Origin: Clostridia bacterium
GTDB taxonomy: Bacteria; Bacillota; Clostridia; CAKSNL01; HGM11501
NCBI GenBank assembly: GCA_045123995.1
Contig: JBGVKY010000026.1
Coordinates: 73,600-137,599 of the forward strand
DNA: 64,000 nt
Direction of reading: 5' to 3'
Each line of letters opens with the position of its first letter. Within the stretch, counting starts at the first letter, position 1. The notes beneath the pieces are model-generated. The model worked only from the letters and a program-made list of their open reading frames with translations, was not told where the DNA came from and searched no databases. A program made the translations under genes and the position numbers. Shown piece after piece: positions 11,773 through 44,427 of this stretch.

Positions 11773-12297
11773 ATGCCTAATTTCAGAAAAGCAGAAGATA
11801 AGGATATAGATGAAGTAGTAAAGATTTACGAAGAAATACATACTTTAGAAGAACAAGGAATTACAAGTGTGGGATGGATTAGAGGTGTGTATCCCACTTA
11901 CGATACTGCTAATAATGCTTTTGGACGCGGAGATTTGTTTGTTGCGGAAAATGAAGGAAAAATAATAGGCTCTGCAATTATAAATAAAATACAGATGGAT
12001 TCCTATAAAGAAGGAAAATGGCACTACGAAGCACCAGAAGACGAAGTTATGGTGCTTCACACTCTTGTTATTTCTCAGAAAGAAGCAAAAAAAGGATACG
12101 GAATGGAATTTGTGAAGTTTTATGAAGAATATGCTTTGTCACACGGCTGTAAACATTTAAGAATGGATACAAACGAGAAGAATCAAAGAGCAAGAACTTT
12201 GTATAAAAAACTGGGATATAACGAAATAGGCATAGTGGATTGTGTATTTAATGGGATAAAGGGTGTTGGCTTGGTTTTACTTGAGAAAAAACTTTAA
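11773..12297 (+). CDS. GNAT-family N-acetyltransferase
   Basis: Size and acetyl-CoA-binding-type motifs are present. RBS GGAGGA. Confidence 0.7.
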   Translation: MPNFRKAEDKDIDEVVKIYEEIHTLEEQGITSVGWIRGVYPTYDTANNAFGRGDLFVAENEGKIIGSAIINKIQMDSYKEGKWHYEAPEDEVMVLHTLVISQKEAKKGYGMEFVKFYEEYALSHGCKHLRMDTNEKNQRARTLYKKLGYNEIGIVDCVFNGIKGVGLVLLEKKL

Positions 12298-29957: not shown

Positions 29958-31028
29958 ATGAAGATTATACATACTGCCGATTTTCATTTAGACTCGGCGA
30001 TGAAAACCAATTTATCAAAAGAAGATGCAAAAACAAGAAAAAATGAAATACTGAATACCTTCGAAAGAATGGTTGATTTCGCCGTCAAAAATGAAGTTAA
30101 AGTTATTTTGATAGCAGGGGATCTGTTCGATACAAAAGCTGTAACTAGAAAGACAAAAAATGTTATTACCGACTGCATAGAAAGAAATCCTCACATTGAT
30201 TTTCTTTACCTAAAAGGAAATCACGACAAAGAGGTTTCTTTATATGAAGAAGAAATGCCTTCAAATCTTAAACTTTTTTCTGATGAATGGACAACTTACA
30301 GCTACGGTGACTTAAAGATTACAGGCGCCAATCTTACAGGCAATACAACTTTGTATAATTCTTTGTTACTTAATAGCTCAGATATTAATATTGTAGTTTT
30401 ACATGGACAGGAAACGAAATATGTAGGCAAGGATAAAACCGAGGCTGTAAATATACCCTTACTTAAAAATCGTTTTATAGATTATCTCGCATTAGGGCAC
30501 ATTCACACCTACAAGGAAGATTTAATTGATAACAGAGGAAGATGGGTTTATTCGGGTTGTCCTGATGGAAGAGGCTATGATGAATGCGGAGTTAAAGGTT
30601 TTGTTTTGATTGACGTAAAAGACGGTATTTTGACTCACGAATTTATTGAGTTTCAGAGCCGTTTGATAACTGAAGTGCCTGTTGATATATCACATTGTCT
30701 TAAGACCACAGAAGTTGATGCAGCTGTTGCCAAGGAGCTTCGAAAGATTGATAAAGATAATTTAGTCAAGGTTAAACTCACGGGTAAAGTATCTGTTGAC
30801 GCAAATTATGATATATCCTATATGGAAGATAAATATAAAAACGATTTCTTCGCTTTCAAAATTGACGGAGATGATGTGGGACTTAAGTTCGATATTGAAG
30901 ATTATAAATATTCTTCATCCCTTAAAGGAGAATTTATAAGAACCGTATTATCTGAGGATTATACCGAGGAAGAAAAAAGAGCAGTAATTGAACTTGGGAT
31001 CCGTGCTCTTTCAGGAGAGGAGATCTGA
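29958..31028 (+). CDS. Metallophosphoesterase, SbcD/Mre11-like nuclease (YhaO-like)
   Basis: DFHLD, GDLFD and GNHD calcineurin-like motifs. Confidence 0.8.
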   Translation: MKIIHTADFHLDSAMKTNLSKEDAKTRKNEILNTFERMVDFAVKNEVKVILIAGDLFDTKAVTRKTKNVITDCIERNPHIDFLYLKGNHDKEVSLYEEEMPSNLKLFSDEWTTYSYGDLKITGANLTGNTTLYNSLLLNSSDINIVVLHGQETKYVGKDKTEAVNIPLLKNRFIDYLALGHIHTYKEDLIDNRGRWVYSGCPDGRGYDECGVKGFVLIDVKDGILTHEFIEFQSRLITEVPVDISHCLKTTEVDAAVAKELRKIDKDNLVKVKLTGKVSVDANYDISYMEDKYKNDFFAFKIDGDDVGLKFDIEDYKYSSSLKGEFIRTVLSEDYTEEEKRAVIELGIRALSGEEI

Positions 31029-31029
31029 C

Positions 31030-33447
31030 ATGAAATTAAAAGAATGTTTTGTGGAAAATTTCGGCAAGCTCCATCACTATAAAATGGAATTTACAGATGG
31101 CCTTAATATCCTTCTCGAAGAAAACGGATTTGGTAAAACCACTTTAGCAGCATTTATAGAAGCTGTTTTTTATGGCCTTGATTCCGGAAGAGGAAAAGAA
31201 AGCAACAGAAAGAAATATGACCCGTGGCAGGGAGGACGCTTCGGCGGAAGTGTTGTTTTTTCCATCGGGGATAAAAACTATCGTTTGGAACGTTTTTTCG
31301 GCAAAAAAGAAAAAGAGGATACATTCACTCTTTATAATAACGATACAGGCCTTATTTCTAAAGACTACACAGAAAACATCGGAACGGAACTTTTCGGCAT
31401 TGACAAAGAATCTTATGAAAAAAGCGCATTTATCCCTCAGGGCAAGGTGGAAGCAGACCTTTCGAAAACAGGTGATATAAATGCCAGACTTTCTGATTTA
31501 TTAGAAAGTGAAAATGATTTAGCTTCTTTTGAGGATGCAATAAAGGCAATTATTGATGCAAAAAATAAATTCAAAAGAACAGGTGGAATAATTAAAACTT
31601 TAGAAAACAGTATAAGCTCTTTGGAGGATGAAATAAAAAAGGCCGAGGAACTTATTGGAATTCAGGAAGATATCAAAAACTACATTTCAGAAAAAAGAAA
31701 AAATAAAAAGAGCGTTCAATTAAATATAGAAAAGGCCCATTCCGACCTGCAGAAAAAAGAGAAGATTGCTTTTTATGAAAATCTCAAAAAAGATGTAGAA
31801 CTGTCCGAGAAGAGGATAGAGGCTTTATTGGCTGAAGTTAAAAAAATTCCTGAAGAAAAAGAACTTTCTGAAATCAGGATAAATACAGAAAACTATAAAA
31901 GCGTTTTAGCCATATACAATTCAAAAAAACTCACTTTTGAAGAAGAGGAGACTTTAAGGGAGCTAAAAGGTGAACTTGGAGAAAAAATTCTTCTGCCCGA
32001 CGAGGTAGGAGAGATAAAGACTCTTTTTTCTAAGTATCATACGTTGAAAGAACTGGTAACCTCGGCTGATTTAACAGACGAGGAAGATAAAAAGCTTTCC
32101 GCTCTTATTTCTTTGTTCGAAAGAAGTAAACCCGAAGAAGAGCTTAATGAAATTCTTTGCGAAGCAAAAAAATGCGAAGAAGGCGGAAGAAATAAGAAGT
32201 TTATACCTCTCATAACAGGGCTTCTCGTTATTTTTGCAGGAATTGTGCCTTTGCTAATGAATAAAGCCATATTCTCTGTACCTTTCTTTATAATTGGAGC
32301 AAGTTTCTTATTTATTTCTGTATTAAAAAATAAAATAGCAACGAAAAAAAACAAAGAATTCGATAGCAAAGTTAAAGCTTTCTTCAAAAAATACGATATT
32401 TCTTATACCGGTGACATACAGTTTTCTGCCAGAGAATTGAAAGAAAAGACAGAAGAGTATTTTACACTTTCAAACAAAAGAAATCAGGCTGATTCCTATA
32501 AGAAAAATGCCGAACTTTTATCTCAGGAAGATAAAATCAGGGAAAAAGCAAAATGTTTTTTTGCCGGATTTGAAAGTGTAGATGAGGCGGAAAGAGAATT
32601 TAATGACTTGATAAAAAAGTCAGGACTCTTATATAATTTAATAAATAAAATTAAAGAGTTGGAATTAGGCAAAGGTCAGATTGATACAGCGCTTGTTAAA
32701 TTAAAGGATTTAACGGACGAATACACTGACAAAGAGCCGGAAACGGCTTATGAATACCTATCTGCCCTCAAAGTAAAAAAAGACAGAGAAGAGGAAGTTT
32801 TGGAAGAAAAAAAAGCTAAGCTTAAGGAGTTTTTAAAGGAAAACGGCGTTTTAGAAATAGAAAACAAAGAAGAAATAAGTAAATCTCAGCTCGAAGCATT
32901 GAATGAAAGTTTAGAATTACTGGATGAAGAAATTATATCTTCCGAAAAACGCCTTATGGACATGGCAACCAAAACAGATTTGCTTCCTGAGCTCATTGAG
33001 GAGAAAGACGCTCTTGACGACAAGCTCAATTTAGCTAAAAAGAAATTATCCATTACAGAAAAAGCTGAAGAGGCTTTAAGTAAGGCAAAAGAAAATCTGG
33101 CCATTAAGTATCTGGGGCCGCTTACGGAAAATTTCGAAAAGTATAAAAAGCTTCTCCTGGCACCCGGTGATGCAAAATTAGATACAGAACTTAACGTAGG
33201 CGTTGTGGAAGCAGGGGAAAAACATTCTTCTGCAAGTTATAGTGCGGGAATAAGGGATATTTTGGCTTTAGCGCTACGGTTTTCACTTATAGAATCTCTT
33301 TTTGAAAATGAAAAACCCCTTGTAATTTTAGATGATCCTTTTGTAAATCTTGATGAAGAAAGGATAAGAGAAGCTAAAAAAGCTCTGGAAATTCTTTCCG
33401 AAGAATATCAGATTTTGTATTTTATCTGCCACGAAAGCCGAAAATAA
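31030..33447 (+). CDS. SbcC/Rad50-like AAA ATPase with long coiled coil and an internal TM hairpin (YhaN-like)
   Basis: ATG at 31030 after AGGAGAGGAG. N-terminal Walker A GFGKTT, C-terminal signature/D-loop ILDDPFVNLD. Two hydrophobic helices around residues 400-445. Confidence 0.75.
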   Translation: MKLKECFVENFGKLHHYKMEFTDGLNILLEENGFGKTTLAAFIEAVFYGLDSGRGKESNRKKYDPWQGGRFGGSVVFSIGDKNYRLERFFGKKEKEDTFTLYNNDTGLISKDYTENIGTELFGIDKESYEKSAFIPQGKVEADLSKTGDINARLSDLLESENDLASFEDAIKAIIDAKNKFKRTGGIIKTLENSISSLEDEIKKAEELIGIQEDIKNYISEKRKNKKSVQLNIEKAHSDLQKKEKIAFYENLKKDVELSEKRIEALLAEVKKIPEEKELSEIRINTENYKSVLAIYNSKKLTFEEEETLRELKGELGEKILLPDEVGEIKTLFSKYHTLKELVTSADLTDEEDKKLSALISLFERSKPEEELNEILCEAKKCEEGGRNKKFIPLITGLLVIFAGIVPLLMNKAIFSVPFFIIGASFLFISVLKNKIATKKNKEFDSKVKAFFKKYDISYTGDIQFSARELKEKTEEYFTLSNKRNQADSYKKNAELLSQEDKIREKAKCFFAGFESVDEAEREFNDLIKKSGLLYNLINKIKELELGKGQIDTALVKLKDLTDEYTDKEPETAYEYLSALKVKKDREEEVLEEKKAKLKEFLKENGVLEIENKEEISKSQLEALNESLELLDEEIISSEKRLMDMATKTDLLPELIEEKDALDDKLNLAKKKLSITEKAEEALSKAKENLAIKYLGPLTENFEKYKKLLLAPGDAKLDTELNVGVVEAGEKHSSASYSAGIRDILALALRFSLIESLFENEKPLVILDDPFVNLDEERIREAKKALEILSEEYQILYFICHESRK

Positions 33448-38445: not shown

Positions 38446-39390
38446 ATGAAAATAGTTGTACTTGATGCGAAAACTTTAGGAGACGATATATCTTTAGATA
38501 TATTAAAAAAAGCGGGGGAGTGTACCTTTTATAAAGAAACTGCCCCGTCAGAAATTCGCGAAAGAATTATTGATGCGGATGTTCTTGTGTTAAATAAATT
38601 GAAGCTCAACGAGGGCAATCTTGCTGATGCTGAAAACTTAAAGCTTATTTGTGTAACTGCCACAGGCTATGATAATATTGATATTGAATACTGTAAAAAA
38701 AGAAATATAGCCGTTTCCAATGTGGTGGGATATTCTTCTCATTCCGTGGCTCAAAACACTTTAGCACAGGTTTTGGCACTTTACACGAATCTTTTTGCTT
38801 ATAACAACTTTGTAAGAAGCGGAGATTATACTAAAAGCGGTGTTGCAAACAGACTTACCCCTGTATACCACGAGCTTTTCGGGAAAACCTGGGGAATAAT
38901 AGGATACGGAAACATAGGAAAAGAGGTAGGGGAGGCAGCTAAAGCTTTAGGATGTAACATCCTTTATACAAGACATAAAAATGATGGTATTTCCGTGGAT
39001 TTGAAAACTTTGTGTGAAAAATCTGATATCATAACAATACACACCCCATTAAATGAAGATACAAGAGCTATTATAAACGAAGAAAAGATTTTCATTATGA
39101 AGGATGGAGTTTTAATAGTAAATGCAGCCAGAGGGGCTGTTACTGACGAAAAAGCCATTGTAAAAGGAATAAAAAGCGGGAAAATTGGATTTTTCGGATC
39201 AGATGTTTATTCCGAAGAGCCTTTTAGCAAAGAGCATCCCTTTAATGAAATAAAAGATTATCCTAATGTGCTTTTAACTCCGCACATGGCCTGGGGATCT
39301 TTTGAAGCCAGAATACGTTGCATTGAAGAAATATATGAAAATATAAAGGCTTTTAACGAGGGAAAGTTAAGAAACCGGGTGGATTTATAA
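38446..39390 (+). CDS. D-isomer-specific 2-hydroxyacid dehydrogenase (glycerate/hydroxypyruvate reductase family)
   Basis: GIIGYGNIGKEV NAD-binding motif and catalytic R/E/H region. Confidence 0.8.
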   Translation: MKIVVLDAKTLGDDISLDILKKAGECTFYKETAPSEIRERIIDADVLVLNKLKLNEGNLADAENLKLICVTATGYDNIDIEYCKKRNIAVSNVVGYSSHSVAQNTLAQVLALYTNLFAYNNFVRSGDYTKSGVANRLTPVYHELFGKTWGIIGYGNIGKEVGEAAKALGCNILYTRHKNDGISVDLKTLCEKSDIITIHTPLNEDTRAIINEEKIFIMKDGVLIVNAARGAVTDEKAIVKGIKSGKIGFFGSDVYSEEPFSKEHPFNEIKDYPNVLLTPHMAWGSFEARIRCIEEIYENIKAFNEGKLRNRVDL

Positions 39391-39427
39391 AAAACAGCTA
39401 TTACGGAAAACGTAATAGCTGTTTTTT
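39390..39427. terminator. Bidirectional terminator
   Basis: AAAAACAGCTATTACG-GAAAA-CGTAATAGCTGTTTTT. Confidence 0.85.
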
Positions 39428-40473
39428 TACTTTTCTTCGGGAAATTCACGGCTTCGCATAATTTCTTTTTTCGCTTTCGCACTGTATTGTGCATAGAATT
39501 TATGTGTTACCTCAATGTTTTTGTGACCCATAAGTTCTGCGACCATTTTAATATCGACTCCTTCTTCCAAAAGAGTGCATGCAAAGGTTCTTCTGAGTGC
39601 GTGAGGTCTTGTTTTATCCTTATTTGTTATTCCTGCCATAAGACAGTAGGTTTTAAGATTGTGTTCAACGCTGGAAATGGTAAGTCTTTCGCCGTTTCTT
39701 GATACAAAAAGAGCATCTGTCTTATAATTTTGTTCGTTTCGCCATTCTATGTAGCTTAAAAGTTCATTTTCAACCTGAACAGGCATAAAAATCTCATCTT
39801 CATTTCCGCCTTTTCTGGTAACAGTAAAGGAAGAAGTTTCGAAATCCACATCAGAAACGTCTAAATTAACCAATTCGCTAACACGAACACCTGTTCCTAA
39901 ATAGGTGAGATACAGCGCTATATCGCGTTTTTTTCTGTTTAGGTATTCGGTGAGGAGGCGGCCTGTAAAATAGTTTTCACCGTTCAATATTACATCCATA
40001 AGACGCATGGTTTCCTGAATAGTCAGTGGTTTTTTTATTTTCTGAACCAGTTTATTCATATCAATCTTAAGAGTAACATTTTGGGAAATTTTATCTGTTT
40101 TATAAAGATAAGAAAACAAGCTCCTTAAAGAAGACATTTTACGGTTTATCCCGAAAGAAGAATTTCTGTGGGTTCTTGTGTAGCTTTCTCCGTCAGATGT
40201 AACGTAGGAGAGTGTGTACTGCTTTAAATAAGATTTATATTCAAGCAGGTCATCTACAGAAATTTTATCCATATCAGCTTCAGAGAAAGACTCCAATGAA
40301 TCATAATTAAAACGACCTGATTCTATTAAAAAATTTAAGAAGATACGAACGTCAAGAGCGAGAGCAAGCTGTGTATTTATTGATTCGCCGTCGTAATAGT
40401 AGTCAATGAATCTGAATACAAAATCAGGTAATTCTGAAAGACGGCTTCTTAATTTAGTTTGTTTATCTATCAT
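39427..40473 (-). CDS. Tyrosine site-specific recombinase (Xer-like, phage-integrase family)
   Basis: C-terminal catalytic motifs HALRRTFA, LMGH and Y in KFYAQYS. N-terminal SAM-like core-binding domain. Confidence 0.8.
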   Translation of the reverse strand: MIDKQTKLRSRLSELPDFVFRFIDYYYDGESINTQLALALDVRIFLNFLIESGRFNYDSLESFSEADMDKISVDDLLEYKSYLKQYTLSYVTSDGESYTRTHRNSSFGINRKMSSLRSLFSYLYKTDKISQNVTLKIDMNKLVQKIKKPLTIQETMRLMDVILNGENYFTGRLLTEYLNRKKRDIALYLTYLGTGVRVSELVNLDVSDVDFETSSFTVTRKGGNEDEIFMPVQVENELLSYIEWRNEQNYKTDALFVSRNGERLTISSVEHNLKTYCLMAGITNKDKTRPHALRRTFACTLLEEGVDIKMVAELMGHKNIEVTHKFYAQYSAKAKKEIMRSREFPEEK

Positions 40474-40523
40474 TGTGAAAAACTCCTTAAAAGCCCGGGG
40501 AGGGCTAAAATACGTTAATCCAA

Positions 40524-40554
40524 TTAAGATAAATAGTTATTTATCTTAATTTAT
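40524..40554. repeat. Perfect 31-bp palindrome AATTAAGATAAATA-GTT-TATTTATCTTAATT
   Basis: Read from sequence. Located 50 bp upstream of the recombinase start and downstream of pgm. Confidence 0.8.
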
Positions 40555-40599
40555 TTATAAATCAGCCTTAATCTCTCCTGTCGGATTTTTTAGATTTTT

Positions 40600-42423: not shown

Positions 42424-44427
42424 TTATTCAGCCTCAGTAGTTTCTGCGTCTTCAGCAGGAGCTTCTTCTGTTGCGGAAGCTTCCTCAACTACCTCTTCGG
42501 GAAGTAATGCTCTTATGGAAAGAGCGATCTTGGGAGCAGGAGTTGCATCCCAGTTGATGTCAATTATCTTAGCATCAACTTTCTGTCCCTTTGAAAGTTC
42601 ATCAGAGGGCTTTGCAATTCTCTTGTTAGCAATCTGAGAAATGTGGATAAGACCTTCTACTCCGGGGATGAGTTCTGCAAAAGCACCGAATGCTGTAACG
42701 TTTGTGATTGTAACATTTACAACGTTGCCAATTTCGAACTTGCTCTTAGCAATTACCCAGGGATTTTCCTCATCCTTCTTGTAGCCTAAGGAAATCTTAT
42801 TTTTTCCGTTTTCATCTGTATCAATCTTTAAGATTCTTACGGTGATTTCATCACCAACATTAACTACTTCCGTGGGATGCTTAATCTTAGCCCAGGAAAG
42901 CTGAGAAATGTGAAGAAGGCCTTCTACCCCTCCTAAGTCAACGAATGCACCAAAATCAGTAATAGTCTTAACTACACCGGTGTATTCCTTGCCAACTTCA
43001 GCGTCAGCCCAAAAAGCTTCGGACTTCTTTGCTTTTTCAGCAAGAAGAACCTGCTTGATGGAACCTAAAATCTTCTTGGAACGTCTGTCAAGCTTAATAA
43101 TCTTAACAGGAACTGTTTTTGCAGGATCTACTAAAACAGAAAGATCGCTTAAATATCTGTCATTAGCCTGAGAGCCGGGAACGAATACTCTGATTCCTTC
43201 GCAAAGTACGATAACTCCGCCTTTAACAGCTTCAATTACGATACCAGAAAGAACAGTGCCGTTTTCCATAGCTTCTTCTAAAACAGCGAATTTCTTCTCG
43301 TTGTCAAGTTTCTTCTTAGAAAGAAGAACGGTGCCTTCTACATCGTTTACGCGAATTACAAATACATCGATAACATCGCCCACTTTAACAATATCTTCGG
43401 GTGCGAGTGTAGGATCGTCTGTTAATTCGCTTGCAGGAATGATACCGTCTGACTTATAATTAAGGTTGACGATAACTTCGTTGGGATGAACCGCAACGAC
43501 TGTTCCTTTAACCTTTTCCCCTGTATGTAAGGTAACGAGAGTGTTTTCAAGCACTTCCGCCCAGTTTTCCTCCTCATTTATATTCTGTGTTACTTTTGTG
43601 TTTTCTTCCATTGTATGAAGAACCTCCTTTATTATCCAGTCCGGTGTTGATGCACCGGCTGTTACACCAATTCGTTTGCGGATATATTCCTCCGCGTCCG
43701 GCAGTTCATATGCGCCCTCTATATGATATACTTTATCACATACTGTCCTTGCTATCTCTACCAGTTTTTTATTGTTGGAGCTGTGCTTCCCTCCTATTAC
43801 AAAGAAAACGTCCGACTCCTTTGCGATTTTTTCGGCTTCTTTTTGCCTTAATTCAGTCGCACTACATATTGTATCAAAAAACAGTGCTGTTTGGCAAGTG
43901 TTTTTTATAAATTCTTTTAAATCTTTCCAAAAAATTGTGCTTGCGGTGGTCTGGGATACGACACAAAGCTTTTTTTCTTTTAAATCTTTGAGTTTTTCAC
44001 GAGCTTCTGCCATATCTTTGATTATTATAGCTGAGTTATCACACCATCCGTTTATGCCTATTACTTCAGGGTGGCTCTCATCCCCCGCAATTATTATATT
44101 ATAACACTCATTATGATATTTTTCAACTATTGTTTGAATTTTTTTTACAAAGGGACATGTTGCATCTATGAATTTTCCGTTTATTCTTTCTAAAACATCT
44201 TTTGAAACACCGTGACTTCTTATTACGAGGGTTTCGGAAGAGGCAAGATTTTCGGGATAATCTGCAACCTTTACTCCTTTTTTTGAAAGTTCTTCCACAA
44301 CTCTTTCGTTATGGATTATCGGGCCTAATGTAACTATATTATCCCCGTTGTTTATACCCTTATTAACAAAATCCAAAGCTCTTGAAACTCCGAAGCAGAA
44401 GCCTGCAGATTTAGCAACCTTAATCAT
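42424..44427 (-). CDS. ispH: Bifunctional 4-hydroxy-3-methylbut-2-enyl diphosphate reductase (IspH) fused to ribosomal protein S1 domains
   Basis: N-terminal IspH (AGFCFGV, Cys ligands) followed by four S1 repeats and an acidic tail. Confidence 0.85.
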   Translation of the reverse strand: MIKVAKSAGFCFGVSRALDFVNKGINNGDNIVTLGPIIHNERVVEELSKKGVKVADYPENLASSETLVIRSHGVSKDVLERINGKFIDATCPFVKKIQTIVEKYHNECYNIIIAGDESHPEVIGINGWCDNSAIIIKDMAEAREKLKDLKEKKLCVVSQTTASTIFWKDLKEFIKNTCQTALFFDTICSATELRQKEAEKIAKESDVFFVIGGKHSSNNKKLVEIARTVCDKVYHIEGAYELPDAEEYIRKRIGVTAGASTPDWIIKEVLHTMEENTKVTQNINEEENWAEVLENTLVTLHTGEKVKGTVVAVHPNEVIVNLNYKSDGIIPASELTDDPTLAPEDIVKVGDVIDVFVIRVNDVEGTVLLSKKKLDNEKKFAVLEEAMENGTVLSGIVIEAVKGGVIVLCEGIRVFVPGSQANDRYLSDLSVLVDPAKTVPVKIIKLDRRSKKILGSIKQVLLAEKAKKSEAFWADAEVGKEYTGVVKTITDFGAFVDLGGVEGLLHISQLSWAKIKHPTEVVNVGDEITVRILKIDTDENGKNKISLGYKKDEENPWVIAKSKFEIGNVVNVTITNVTAFGAFAELIPGVEGLIHISQIANKRIAKPSDELSKGQKVDAKIIDINWDATPAPKIALSIRALLPEEVVEEASATEEAPAEDAETTEAE

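What the first reader, a model, noticed from the sequence alone, without database searches (positions are those of the whole stretch)
39391..40599. Lone tyrosine recombinase flanked by a bidirectional terminator and a perfect 31-bp palindrome: candidate single-recombinase Xer/dif-like module
The 348-aa recombinase is isolated between housekeeping genes (2-hydroxyacid dehydrogenase and pgm), with no phage or transposon genes nearby. Fifty bp upstream of its start lies AATTAAGATAAATA-GTT-TATTTATCTTAATT (11-bp arms plus 9-bp centre, or 14+3+14). This resembles XerS/difSL-type systems, in which the dif site is adjacent to its dedicated recombinase. The perfect symmetry is atypical for dif, so an operator or pgm terminator role is also possible.
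Basis: partly seen in the sequence, partly recalled or inferred. Interest (0 to 1): 0.55.

Follow-up and report, generated by a model that had tools for sequence, protein, structure and literature searches.

The report
Xer recombinase with adjacent dif site
An uncultured gut Clostridia bacterium carries, at the point where chromosome replication ends, a XerS-like recombinase gene just downstream of a conserved 30-bp palindrome; this is most likely a self-contained module that separates joined sister chromosomes, a known kind of system in a new protein family with a new site sequence.

Summary

- Skew is about +0.14 over the 34 kb to the left and about -0.14 over the 24 kb to the right.
- Cumulative G-C peaks at base 40504, 18 bp from the palindrome.
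- Genes converge at 39.4 kb, so this is the replication terminus.

The 348-aa protein has all six tyrosine-recombinase catalytic residues. Its best curated matches are XerS, XerA, XerC and XerD, each below its family cut-off. No mobile-element genes are nearby.

In seven related genomes (81-97% identity) the palindrome lies in a 35-bp conserved island in otherwise diverged DNA.
- It stays 36-54 bp upstream of the gene even where flanking genes differ.
- One arm substitution is mirrored in the other arm.
- The skew peak falls within about 1 kb of the gene start in all six loci with usable flanks.

More distant orthologues (64% identity or less) lie elsewhere, often beside recG, and have no such site within 10 kb.

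Most likely this is a dif/Xer chromosome-dimer-resolution module that works like XerS/difSL but belongs to neither XerS nor difSL. I could not test whether XerC/XerD exist elsewhere in the genome. It is a new variant of a known kind, of moderate interest.

The parts
40522..40551 (-). Candidate dif site: a 30-bp palindrome. In gene orientation it reads AATTAAGATAAATA-AC-TATTTATCTTAATT. It can be read as 12-bp arms around a 6-bp TAACTA centre, or 11-bp arms around an 8-bp centre. Only the central AC/GT breaks the symmetry.
   Evidence: Perfect 14+2+14 inverted repeat. Unique in the window. Present once, upstream of the orthologous gene, in L001-L007. It lies 18 bp from the cumulative G-C maximum. 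The central AC has the same orientation relative to the gene in all 8 sequences.
40519..40553 (-). 35-bp island of near-invariance around the palindrome. It includes three extra invariant bases (GGA in gene orientation, 40519-40521) on the gene-proximal side and two (TA, 40552-40553) on the distal side.
   Evidence: Alignment A2 of 8 intergenic regions. 31 of the 35 island positions are invariant while the flanks are scrambled. The variable position inside the 12-bp arms changes A to C in the left arm together with T to G in the right arm.
39427..40473 (-). Xer-type tyrosine recombinase gene, 348 aa, XerS-like in length and N-terminal architecture.
   Evidence: NCBIfam scores: XerS 151 bits over the full length (residues 5-340 against model 7-354/360), XerA 147, XerC 144, XerD 140, all below their cut-offs. 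Catalytic residues R197, K221, H291, R294, H317 and Y327 align to XerD R148, K172, H244, R247, H270 and Y279, numbered from my knowledge of E. coli XerD, and are invariant in A1. AlphaFold model has pLDDT 81.5; the best PDB matches are XerA and XerD.
40483..40487 (-). Shine-Dalgarno sequence AGGAG, 9 nt upstream of the recombinase ATG.
   Evidence: Read directly from the sequence. GGAG is kept in L001-L003 and L007.
39389..39427 (.). Bidirectional intrinsic terminator shared by the convergent 2-hydroxyacid dehydrogenase and recombinase genes. It marks the point where gene orientation switches from + to -.
   Evidence: for the structure; for the gene orientation map.
39390..40551 (.). Replication-terminus interval: the stretch within which GC skew changes sign. 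Cumulative G-C is flat across the recombinase gene and peaks at 40504.
   Evidence: Skew is about +0.14 to the left and about -0.14 to the right. In the greedy ORF map, 31 of 34 ORFs left of 39.4 kb are on the + strand and 26 of 27 to the right are on the - strand.

Best explanation
This is a dif/Xer chromosome-dimer-resolution module located at the replication terminus.

Inferred mechanism, by analogy with XerS/difSL, XerH/difH and XerA/dif:
- Two copies of the same recombinase bind the two identical arms of the 30-bp site.
- When homologous recombination has joined the sister chromosomes into a dimer, two copies of the site are brought together at the division septum.
- Four subunits cut and exchange strands across a 6-8-bp central region (TAACTA or ATAACTAT), converting the dimer into two monomers.
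- The non-palindromic central AC/GT is the only feature that gives the site a direction. It would force parallel alignment, so that recombination deletes rather than inverts, as the asymmetric spacer does in loxP.
- Activation by an FtsK-type translocase is expected but is not shown here.
- Because the site lies between pgm and the recombinase start codon, recombinase bound there may also affect the gene's own transcription.

Shown here: the site, its conservation, its linkage to the gene, its position at the terminus, the intact active site, and the Xer affinity of the protein.
Inferred: binding, cleavage positions, dimer resolution, FtsK dependence, and the absence of other Xer proteins.
For: 1. 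Terminus position. Cumulative G-C peaks at 40504, 18 bp from the site. Skew is +0.10 to +0.21 over windows covering 1-34 kb and -0.06 to -0.15 over 40-64 kb. Genes converge at 39.4 kb. In related loci the skew maximum lies -32, -32, +25, +740, +87 and +1016 bp from the gene start (L001-L005; L007).

2. Phylogenetic footprint. There is a 35-bp near-invariant island in otherwise diverged intergenic DNA across 8 genomes whose recombinases are 81-97% identical. One arm position changes symmetrically in both arms, and the central AC keeps a fixed orientation.

3. Linkage to the recombinase rather than to its neighbours. In L004 and L005, 2.9 and 1.6 kb of sugar-metabolism genes separate pgm from the site. 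Genes downstream of the recombinase also differ there. The site still stays 36-54 bp upstream of the gene.

4. The protein is Xer-like. The top four NCBIfam hits are XerS, XerA, XerC and XerD at 140-151 bits; integron integrases and invertases score 60 or less, and a phage-type integrase scores 17. All 16 family members tested behave the same way. The catalytic hexad is intact. The closest folds are XerA and XerD.

5. The family is a vertically inherited chromosomal gene. Relatives were confirmed at 159 places in the genome scan; the 80 kept are mostly MAGs labelled Clostridia, Lachnospiraceae, Oscillospiraceae or Bacillota, about 60% identical, with 118 invariant columns. In 27-34 loci the gene sits next to asp23-fakA-recG-rsmD.

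6. No competing dif. No match to B. subtilis or E. coli dif or to difSL with 8 mismatches or fewer in the window, or with 7 or fewer in any of the 80 loci.

7. The layout repeats the evidence used to define XerS/difSL: a recombinase of about 350 aa at the skew shift, preceded by a roughly 50-bp conserved region and followed by a terminator, with variable neighbours (PMC1914069). It also meets the dif criteria listed for Legionella (PMC9765430).
Against: - No functional data exist.
- The eight genomes that carry the site are close relatives with partly shared synteny, so terminus position and site conservation amount to roughly one evolutionary observation.
- The exact position of the skew peak is only good to about 1 kb, because cumulative skew is flat across the recombinase gene.
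- Orthologues at 64% identity or less are mostly not at a skew switch and have no comparable site within 10 kb. The family as a whole is therefore not shown to be Xer, and the cognate site of those relatives is unknown.
- Perfectly symmetric arms are also typical of transcription-factor operators.
- The 18-nt core is low in information. At least 120 unrelated metagenome contigs carry AGATAAATA-NN-TATTTATCT, and one phage family carries a 28-bp identical stretch in a non-recombination context.
- XerC/XerD could exist elsewhere in the genome.
- The test for polar FtsK-guiding motifs was inconclusive.
Confidence: 0.7

Rival explanations
1. The palindrome is only a transcriptional operator. A homodimeric regulator, either the recombinase itself or another protein, binds it to control the recombinase gene. 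The real dif site lies elsewhere.
For: The site is 36-54 bp upstream of the start codon in all 8 genomes, where a promoter or operator would sit. Perfect dyad symmetry is typical of operators. The mirrored arm substitution fits any homodimeric binder. In relatives at 64% identity or less the gene works without an adjacent site.
Against: This reading does not explain why the gene and site sit at the skew switch in every testable locus of the clade. No sigma-70-like promoter overlaps the site. No other dif candidate exists in the 64-kb terminus window. The two roles are not mutually exclusive; difSL was itself proposed to lie within or downstream of the xerS promoter (PMC1914069).
Confidence: 0.12
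2. The site and recombinase do recombine, but as an accessory system. The genome also has XerC/XerD and a canonical dif, and this module does something else, such as acting as a redundant resolution system or a docking site for mobile elements.
For: Whole-genome content could not be examined. L. helveticus is reported to carry xerS alongside xerC and xerD (PMC3025954). XerC/XerD are said to be ancient and widespread in Firmicutes (PMC8136486).
Against: No canonical dif lies within 40 kb to the left or 23 kb to the right of the skew switch, which is where dif normally lies. The related terminus loci also lack one. No second recombinase is present in the window.
Confidence: 0.1
3. The palindrome acts at the RNA level, as a hairpin that terminates or attenuates pgm transcription or serves as a processing signal.
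For: It would fold into a 13-bp hairpin; the 121-nt region folds at -23.8 kcal/mol, z = -2.96. The single variable stem position keeps its pairing. pgm has no other terminator before the recombinase gene. An identical palindrome sits between two co-directional phage genes.
Against: The stem has one G-C pair per arm and is not followed by a T-run, so the terminator scan does not call it, unlike eight canonical terminators in the same window. Every stem and loop base but one is invariant, which is more constraint than a structure needs. The element persists when the upstream gene is not pgm. There is no Rfam match.
Confidence: 0.05
4. The recombinase is the integrase or invertase of a degraded mobile or invertible element, and the palindrome is its leftover att or inversion site.
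For: Gene-next-to-site modules are typical of integrative elements (PMC1914069 discussion). Tn1549 integrase appears among the fold matches.
Against: No phage, transposon or conjugation genes are in the window. No second copy or half-site of the palindrome exceeds chance expectation. There is no tRNA. The family is conserved at about 60% identity in fixed housekeeping contexts. Xer models far outscore integrase and invertase models.
Confidence: 0.03

Closest known systems
XerS/difSL of Streptococcaceae (Le Bourgeois et al. 2007, PMC1914069; Nolivos et al. 2010, PMC2965235)
   Same: Both have one recombinase of about 350 aa (348 here, 356 for XerS) with an extended N-terminal domain. XerS is the only curated model that aligns over the full length, and it is the best NCBIfam hit. 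In both, the site lies immediately upstream of the gene, a terminator follows the gene, the module sits at the GC-skew shift, and the neighbouring genes vary.
   Different: The protein scores 151 bits against a XerS cut-off of 267, about the same distance as to XerA, XerC and XerD. The site has no sequence similarity to difSL. It is 30 bp with perfect 12-14-bp arms, whereas difSL is 31 bp with unequal, imperfect arms and an 11-bp centre (PMC5357621). The host is Clostridia rather than Streptococcaceae. The gene-site linkage is confined to one clade of the family.
XerH/difH of Helicobacter and Campylobacter (Debowski 2012, PMC3325230; Bebel 2016)
   Same: A single recombinase of 354-362 aa, with the site near the gene and two similar arms bound by one protein.
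   Different: Sequence similarity is weak (41 bits, catalytic domain only), and the fold match is poorer than to XerA or XerD. The difH arms are imperfect (11 and 10 bp) and unrelated in sequence.
XerA/dif of Archaea (Cortez 2010; Serre 2013)
   Same: A single recombinase acts on a fairly symmetric 11-6-11 site. As here, some species keep the gene and site together while others have them apart (PMC5357621). XerA is the second-best NCBIfam hit and the best PDB sequence and fold match.
   Different: XerA is about 280 aa and lacks the N-terminal extension; its model starts aligning at residue 62 here. It acts without FtsK, and it is archaeal.
XerL/dif of Legionellales (PMC9765430)
   Same: [quoted passage not shown]
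   Different: XerL is a different and larger recombinase (its catalytic tyrosine is Y387), and in Legionella its gene is not adjacent to the site. I made no sequence comparison.
Cre/loxP (site architecture only)
   Same: Perfect inverted arms bound by a homotetramer, with direction set solely by an asymmetric centre. This rests on established knowledge.
   Different: loxP is 13-8-13 with a fully asymmetric 8-bp spacer, whereas here only the central 2 bp are asymmetric. Cre is a phage-plasmid resolution enzyme and only a distant fold match.

Membership tests
XerS (NCBIfam NF003462 equivalog) | The protein reaches the curated XerS cut-off of 267 bits. | tested here: not met
   151.2 bits. The best E-value among the 16 family members was 2.1e-52; only the window protein's score (151.2 bits) was checked against the cut-off.
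XerS/difSL module | A recombinase of about 356 aa with an extended N-terminal domain. | tested here: met
   348 aa. The XerS model aligns residues 5-340 to model positions 7-354 of 360. The XerA, XerC and XerD models start aligning only at residues 62-101.
XerS/difSL module | The recombination site lies immediately upstream of the recombinase gene and is physically linked to it across species. | tested here: met
   The site is 36-54 bp upstream of the gene in the window and in L001-L007, despite changed flanks. This holds only within this clade; 73 more distant loci lack it.
XerS/difSL module | The site matches the 31-bp difSL consensus ATTTTTCCGAAAAACTATAATTTTCTTGAAA. I quoted this sequence from memory; its arms are confirmed in PMC5357621. 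| tested here: not met
   No match with 9 mismatches or fewer in the window, or with 7 or fewer in the 80 loci.
XerS/difSL module | The genome lacks XerC/XerD and a canonical dif. | not testable with these tools
   Only 64 kb of the genome is available. Within it there is no second tyrosine recombinase and no canonical dif.
XerS/difSL module | Recombination depends on a septal FtsK translocase. | not testable with these tools
   No FtsK gene was among the ten window proteins scanned; the 729-aa ORF is a PcrA/UvrD helicase. An experiment is required.
Xer-type tyrosine recombinase (general) | The catalytic residues R-K-H-R-H/W-Y are present. | tested here: met
   R197, K221, H291, R294, H317 and Y327 align to the XerD catalytic residues and are invariant in A1.
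Xer-type tyrosine recombinase (general) | The protein is closer to Xer families than to mobile-element integrases or invertases. | tested here: met
   XerS, XerA, XerC and XerD score 140-151 bits. Integron integrase scores 60, invertases 41-57, and a phage-type integrase 17. The top PDB hits are XerA and XerD.
Xer-type tyrosine recombinase (general) | It is a chromosomal, vertically inherited gene in a housekeeping context. | tested here: met
   The window neighbours are housekeeping genes. Distant orthologues lie beside asp23-fakA-recG-rsmD in 27-34 loci. Only 2 other tyrosine recombinases occur in 1.36 Mb of related loci.
dif site (criteria as in PMC9765430 and PMC1914069) | About 28-31 bp, AT-rich, non-coding, with two inverted arms around a 6-8-bp centre. 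| tested here: met
   30 bp, 4 G/C bases in 30, intergenic, readable as 12-6-12 or 11-8-11.
dif site (criteria as in PMC9765430 and PMC1914069) | The site lies at the cumulative GC-skew maximum, the replication terminus. | tested here: met
   18 bp from the maximum in the window, and within about 1 kb in the six related loci with usable flanks. A whole-genome skew profile is not available.
dif site (criteria as in PMC9765430 and PMC1914069) | One copy per chromosome. | tested here: inconclusive
   The site is unique in the 64-kb window and occurs once in each related locus of 2.5-21 kb. The rest of the genome was not seen.
dif site (criteria as in PMC9765430 and PMC1914069) | The sequence is conserved across relatives while the flanking genes vary. 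| tested here: met
   A 35-bp near-invariant island. Flanks differ in L004 and L005 on both sides.
dif site (criteria as in PMC9765430 and PMC1914069) | The cognate recombinase recombines the site. | not testable with these tools
   An experiment is required.
Canonical XerCD/dif | A 28-bp site resembling the B. subtilis or E. coli dif, with distinct XerC and XerD arms. | tested here: not met
   The best match to B. subtilis dif in the window has 9 of 28 mismatches and lies elsewhere. The arms here are identical to each other.
Intrinsic terminator (as a reading of the palindrome) | A G+C-containing stem followed by a T-run. | tested here: not met
   The scan does not call it. It has 1 G/C per arm, against 4-5 in the eight canonical terminators of the window.

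The most novel reading that the evidence does not exclude
This is an undescribed single-recombinase Xer system of uncultured gut Clostridia, and the family's only dimer-resolution enzyme. Its dif site is loxP-like: perfectly symmetric arms, with direction encoded by just two central base pairs. The gene-plus-site module arose recently in one clade, when a housekeeping xer gene that ancestrally sat beside recG moved to the terminus next to its own target. That would be an independent origin of the 'module' layout seen in XerS, XerH and some XerA systems.
Probability: 0.4. Interest if true: 0.6.

Novelty: new variant of a known kind. Interest (0 to 1): 0.5.

Why it matters
Single-recombinase Xer systems are few: XerS, XerH, XerA and XerL. 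Each has shown something about how one protein can do the ordered, directional strand exchange that XerC and XerD share between them.

A further system would be useful in three ways.
- Its arms are perfectly identical and only 2 bp of the centre are asymmetric. That makes it a clean natural test of how direction and order of cleavage are set without arm asymmetry.
- It would give a handle on the replication terminus and on chromosome segregation in a large, uncultured group of gut Clostridia.
- The contrast between genomes where the gene sits next to the site and sister lineages where it sits beside recG bears on how such self-contained modules form.

Practically, a compact 30-bp site with a 348-aa recombinase could become a recombination tool, and the site is a candidate docking point for Xer-exploiting mobile elements in gut bacteria.

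Tried and rejected
1. Metagenome scan for AGATAAATANNTATTTATCT. All were unrelated AT-rich palindromes with every kind of centre, and none had a Xer homologue nearby. The pattern was too short, so the scan shows only that the core alone carries little information.

2. Viral scan for the 26-bp core as a test for Xer-exploiting elements. It returned 14 contigs of one tailed-phage family. There the element lies between a baseplate-like gene and the gene for a structural protein of about 1800 aa, with no recombinase nearby. I rejected this as evidence for an integrative element; it remains an unexplained coincidence.

3. Search for the same or a similar site near the 73 more distant orthologues, allowing up to 6 mismatches, and for imperfect palindromes near the skew switches of L013, L016 and L027. 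I found only ordinary terminators and one unique palindrome in L013. The cognate sites of distant relatives remain unknown.

4. The apparent upstream palindromes in distant loci turned out to be TTGAAA-17-TATACT/TATAAT promoters.

5. Test for polar FtsK-guiding motifs. GAAGAAG is 40:9 and TACGGAA is 22:0 towards the site. However, 64 kb is too little sequence, and the polarity is confounded with coding strand.

6. Residues co-varying with the arm substitution. Six such residues were found, all within positions 2-56, but they cannot be separated from shared ancestry.

7. Rfam and tRNA scans of the locus found nothing above the gathering thresholds.

8. Literature searches found no description of such a system in Clostridia.
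Full report
**What is there**

The minus-strand ORF 39427..40473 encodes a 348-aa protein with a Pfam Phage_integrase domain (111.6 bits).

It ends in a perfect 17-nt inverted repeat with a 5-nt loop, flanked by A and T runs (39389-39427). This overlaps the stop codons of both convergent genes and is a textbook bidirectional terminator.

Upstream of the ORF, 48 nt from the ATG, lies a perfect inverted repeat with arms at 40522-40535 and 40538-40551 and 2 nt between them.

The palindrome is not a chance feature.
- Markov simulations of the window gave a mean of 0.09 perfect inverted repeats with arms of at least 12 nt, and none with arms of at least 14.
- Among the ten real inverted repeats of that size in the window, eight are canonical terminators with 4-5 G/C per arm.
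- This one has a single G/C per arm, lacks the flanking A and T runs of those eight, and the terminator scan does not call it.
- Its 20-nt core is unique in the 64 kb even with three mismatches allowed.

**The locus is the replication terminus**

- GC skew is positive (+0.10 to +0.21) over windows covering 1-34 kb and negative (-0.06 to -0.15) over 40-64 kb.
- At base resolution the cumulative G-C count peaks at 40504, 18 bp from the palindrome.
- The curve is flat across the recombinase gene (1858 at 39.5 kb, 1865 at 40.5 kb). The switch is therefore located only to the roughly 1.1 kb between the bidirectional terminator and the palindrome.
- In the greedy ORF map, 31 of 34 ORFs to the left are on the + strand and 26 of 27 to the right are on the - strand, so the two sets converge at 39.4 kb. 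Convergent, co-oriented genes together with a cumulative-skew maximum mark a terminus, not an origin (convention as stated in PMC9765430).
- The neighbours are housekeeping genes: serS, an ABC exporter, a 2-hydroxyacid dehydrogenase, pgm, an ispH-S1 fusion, an acyltransferase, cmk and pcrA.
- The window has no second tyrosine recombinase. There is no tRNA or Rfam family at the locus.
- No match to B. subtilis dif, E. coli dif or difSL with 8 mismatches or fewer exists anywhere in the window.

**The protein**

- The four best NCBIfam models are XerS (151 bits, cut-off 267), archaeal XerA (147), XerC (144) and XerD (140).
- Integron integrases, invertases and a phage-type integrase score 60 or less.
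- Only the XerS model aligns over the full length (residues 5-340 against model 7-354/360). The others start aligning at residues 62-101.
- All 16 family members tested give the same ranking.
- Against E. coli XerD, the catalytic residues R148, K172, H244, R247, H270 and Y279 (numbering from my knowledge of XerD) align to R197, K221, H291, R294, H317 and Y327. These positions are invariant across the family.
- An AlphaFold model (pLDDT 81.5) matches XerA and XerD best, then Tn1549 integrase and XerH. That is consistent with a Xer assignment but does not discriminate.
- The protein is therefore a Xer-type recombinase, XerS-like in size and N-terminal architecture. By the curated threshold it is not a XerS.

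**Comparative evidence**

A genome scan confirmed relatives at 159 places. I kept 80 loci, mostly uncultured Clostridia MAGs.

Seven loci (L001-L007, 81-97% protein identity) carry the palindrome. Each has one copy, 36-54 bp upstream of the gene.

Aligning the eight intergenic regions shows a 35-bp near-invariant island (window 40519-40553) inside otherwise scrambled sequence.
- The core is TT[A/C]AGATAAATA-AC-TATTTATCT[T/G]AA.
- The variable position inside the 12-bp arms changes in both arms together: A...T in the window and L001, C...G in L002-L007.
- The central AC always has the same orientation relative to the gene.
- Three further bases on the gene side (GGA) are invariant.

The site follows the recombinase, not its neighbours.
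- In L001-L003 and L007 pgm is directly upstream, as in the window.
- In L004 and L005, 2.9 and 1.6 kb encoding a sugar-phosphate-isomerase-like protein and a rhamnosidase-like protein (my reading of the ORF translations) lie between pgm and the site.
- In those two loci the genes downstream of the recombinase are also different.
- This argues against a pgm terminator.

In all six loci with usable flanks, the cumulative-skew maximum lies -32 to +1016 bp from the gene start, with positive skew on one side and negative on the other.

**The wider family behaves differently**

Among 44 loci whose recombinase is 64% identical or less, skew is mostly monotonic across 21 kb, and no related site lies within 10 kb.

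In 27-34 of the 80 loci the gene is divergent from the conserved asp23-fakA-recG-rsmD cluster. Its upstream 'palindromes' there are ordinary TTGAAA-17-TATACT promoters.

Taken together:
- The family is a stable, vertically inherited chromosomal gene, about 60% identical across families with 118 invariant columns.
- This fits a housekeeping Xer and not a mobile-element integrase.
- The gene-next-to-site arrangement is specific to the window's clade.
- The same split is reported for archaeal XerA, where some species keep xerA and dif together and others apart (PMC5357621).

**Interpretation**

The anatomy repeats, point for point, the evidence by which XerS/difSL was discovered: a recombinase of about 350 aa at the skew shift, preceded by a short, highly conserved non-coding block, followed by a terminator, with variable neighbours (PMC1914069). 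It also meets the dif criteria used for Legionella: about 30 bp, AT-rich, palindromic, non-coding, at the skew maximum, with varying flanks (PMC9765430).

I therefore read the palindrome as the dif site and the gene as its dedicated recombinase (confidence 0.7).

By inference from established tyrosine-recombinase mechanism:
- Identical subunits bind both arms and exchange strands across a 6-8-bp centre (TAACTA or ATAACTAT).
- The non-palindromic AC/GT pair is the only source of direction, as the asymmetric spacer is in loxP.
- FtsK control is expected but untested.
- Because the site lies between pgm and the start codon, with no recognisable terminator or promoter nearby, bound recombinase may also modulate its own expression. 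The same was speculated for difSL.

**Rivals**

- Operator only (0.12). This explains the position and the symmetry but not the terminus location.
- An accessory system alongside XerCD (0.10). It cannot be excluded without the genome, although no canonical dif lies in the terminus window or in the related loci.
- An RNA hairpin or terminator (0.05). The element would fold, but it lacks terminator features and is far more constrained in sequence than a structure requires.
- A mobile-element remnant or invertase (0.03). This is contradicted by the gene context, by the uniqueness of the site and by the family's conservation.

**Cautions**

- The eight site-bearing genomes are close relatives, so they amount to roughly one evolutionary observation.
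- The core sequence alone is low in information. At least 120 unrelated metagenome contigs carry AGATAAATA-NN-TATTTATCT.
- One tailed-phage family carries a 28-bp identical stretch between structural genes, with no recombinase nearby.
- Tests for polar FtsK-guiding motifs were inconclusive.

**Novelty**

Literature searches found single-recombinase Xer systems only for Streptococcaceae (XerS), Epsilonproteobacteria (XerH), Archaea (XerA) and Legionellales (XerL), and nothing for Clostridia.

This is a known kind of system. What is new:
- a distinct protein family;
- an unrelated and unusually symmetric site;
- a clade-restricted module.

I rate it a new variant of a known kind, with interest 0.5.

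Noticed in passing
L201-L214 (e.g. L206 4173-4198), L133 2060-2090, L145 4672-4702: A 28-bp stretch identical to the window palindrome (AATTAAGATAAATAACTATTTATCTTAA) is strictly conserved in one family of tailed-phage contigs. It sits 10-12 nt upstream of the ATG of a structural protein of about 1800 aa and downstream of a baseplate-like gene, while the flanks diverge. No recombinase is nearby. This may be coincidence or a shared hairpin or operator role; it is unexplained.
   Followed up: partly
L035-L047, L052, L058, L065-L069, L072: about 100-130 bp upstream of the recombinase start: A conserved block, TTTTACTATAtTATTtCC..TTAGTCCATAG, followed by TAATATAAAAATAATATTACA, lies between the recombinase gene and the divergent asp23 gene. 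It is upstream of an ordinary TTGAAA-17-TATACT promoter. Its function is unknown.
   Followed up: no
27-34 of the 80 loci L001-L080 (cluster members include L008, L009, L014, L032): In many distant relatives the recombinase gene is divergent from the conserved asp23-fakA-recG-rsmD cluster, so it sits next to a Holliday-junction helicase gene rather than at the terminus.
   Followed up: partly
window, whole length; switch between 39402 and 47176: The heptamer TACGGAA occurs 16 times on the + strand and never on the - strand left of 39.4 kb, then 6 times on the - strand and never on the + strand to the right. Pooled over L001-L005 and L007 the ratio is 27:5. It could be a polar, FtsK-guiding-type motif, but this is confounded with coding strand.
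   Followed up: partly
L004 12358-13191 (-); L005 11868-12914 (-): The side of the terminus downstream of the recombinase is variable. L004 has a second, unrelated 277-aa tyrosine recombinase 1.3 kb away (37 bits to the query). L005 has what look like RHS-like toxin genes (my reading of the translations; no family search was run).
   Followed up: no
window 30988-33447 (+): An 819-aa ORF with no Pfam match at E <= 1e-5.
   Followed up: no
window 42424-44427 (-): IspH (LytB) is fused to four S1 domains in one 667-aa protein. The fusion is conserved in L001-L005 and L007.
   Followed up: no
recombinase residues 2, 11, 38, 42, 54, 56: All six residues that separate the window and L001 (arm base A/T) from L002-L007 (arm base C/G) lie in the first 56 residues of the protein. 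This cannot be told apart from shared ancestry.
   Followed up: partly
L013 about 11912-11934 (1912 bp after the gene start): A unique palindrome, TTTATGTGAT-TTC-ATCACATAAA, lies about 180 bp from that locus's skew maximum. None of the other 79 loci matches it within 4 mismatches. It is a possible dif candidate for that lineage, but it has not been tested.
   Followed up: partly
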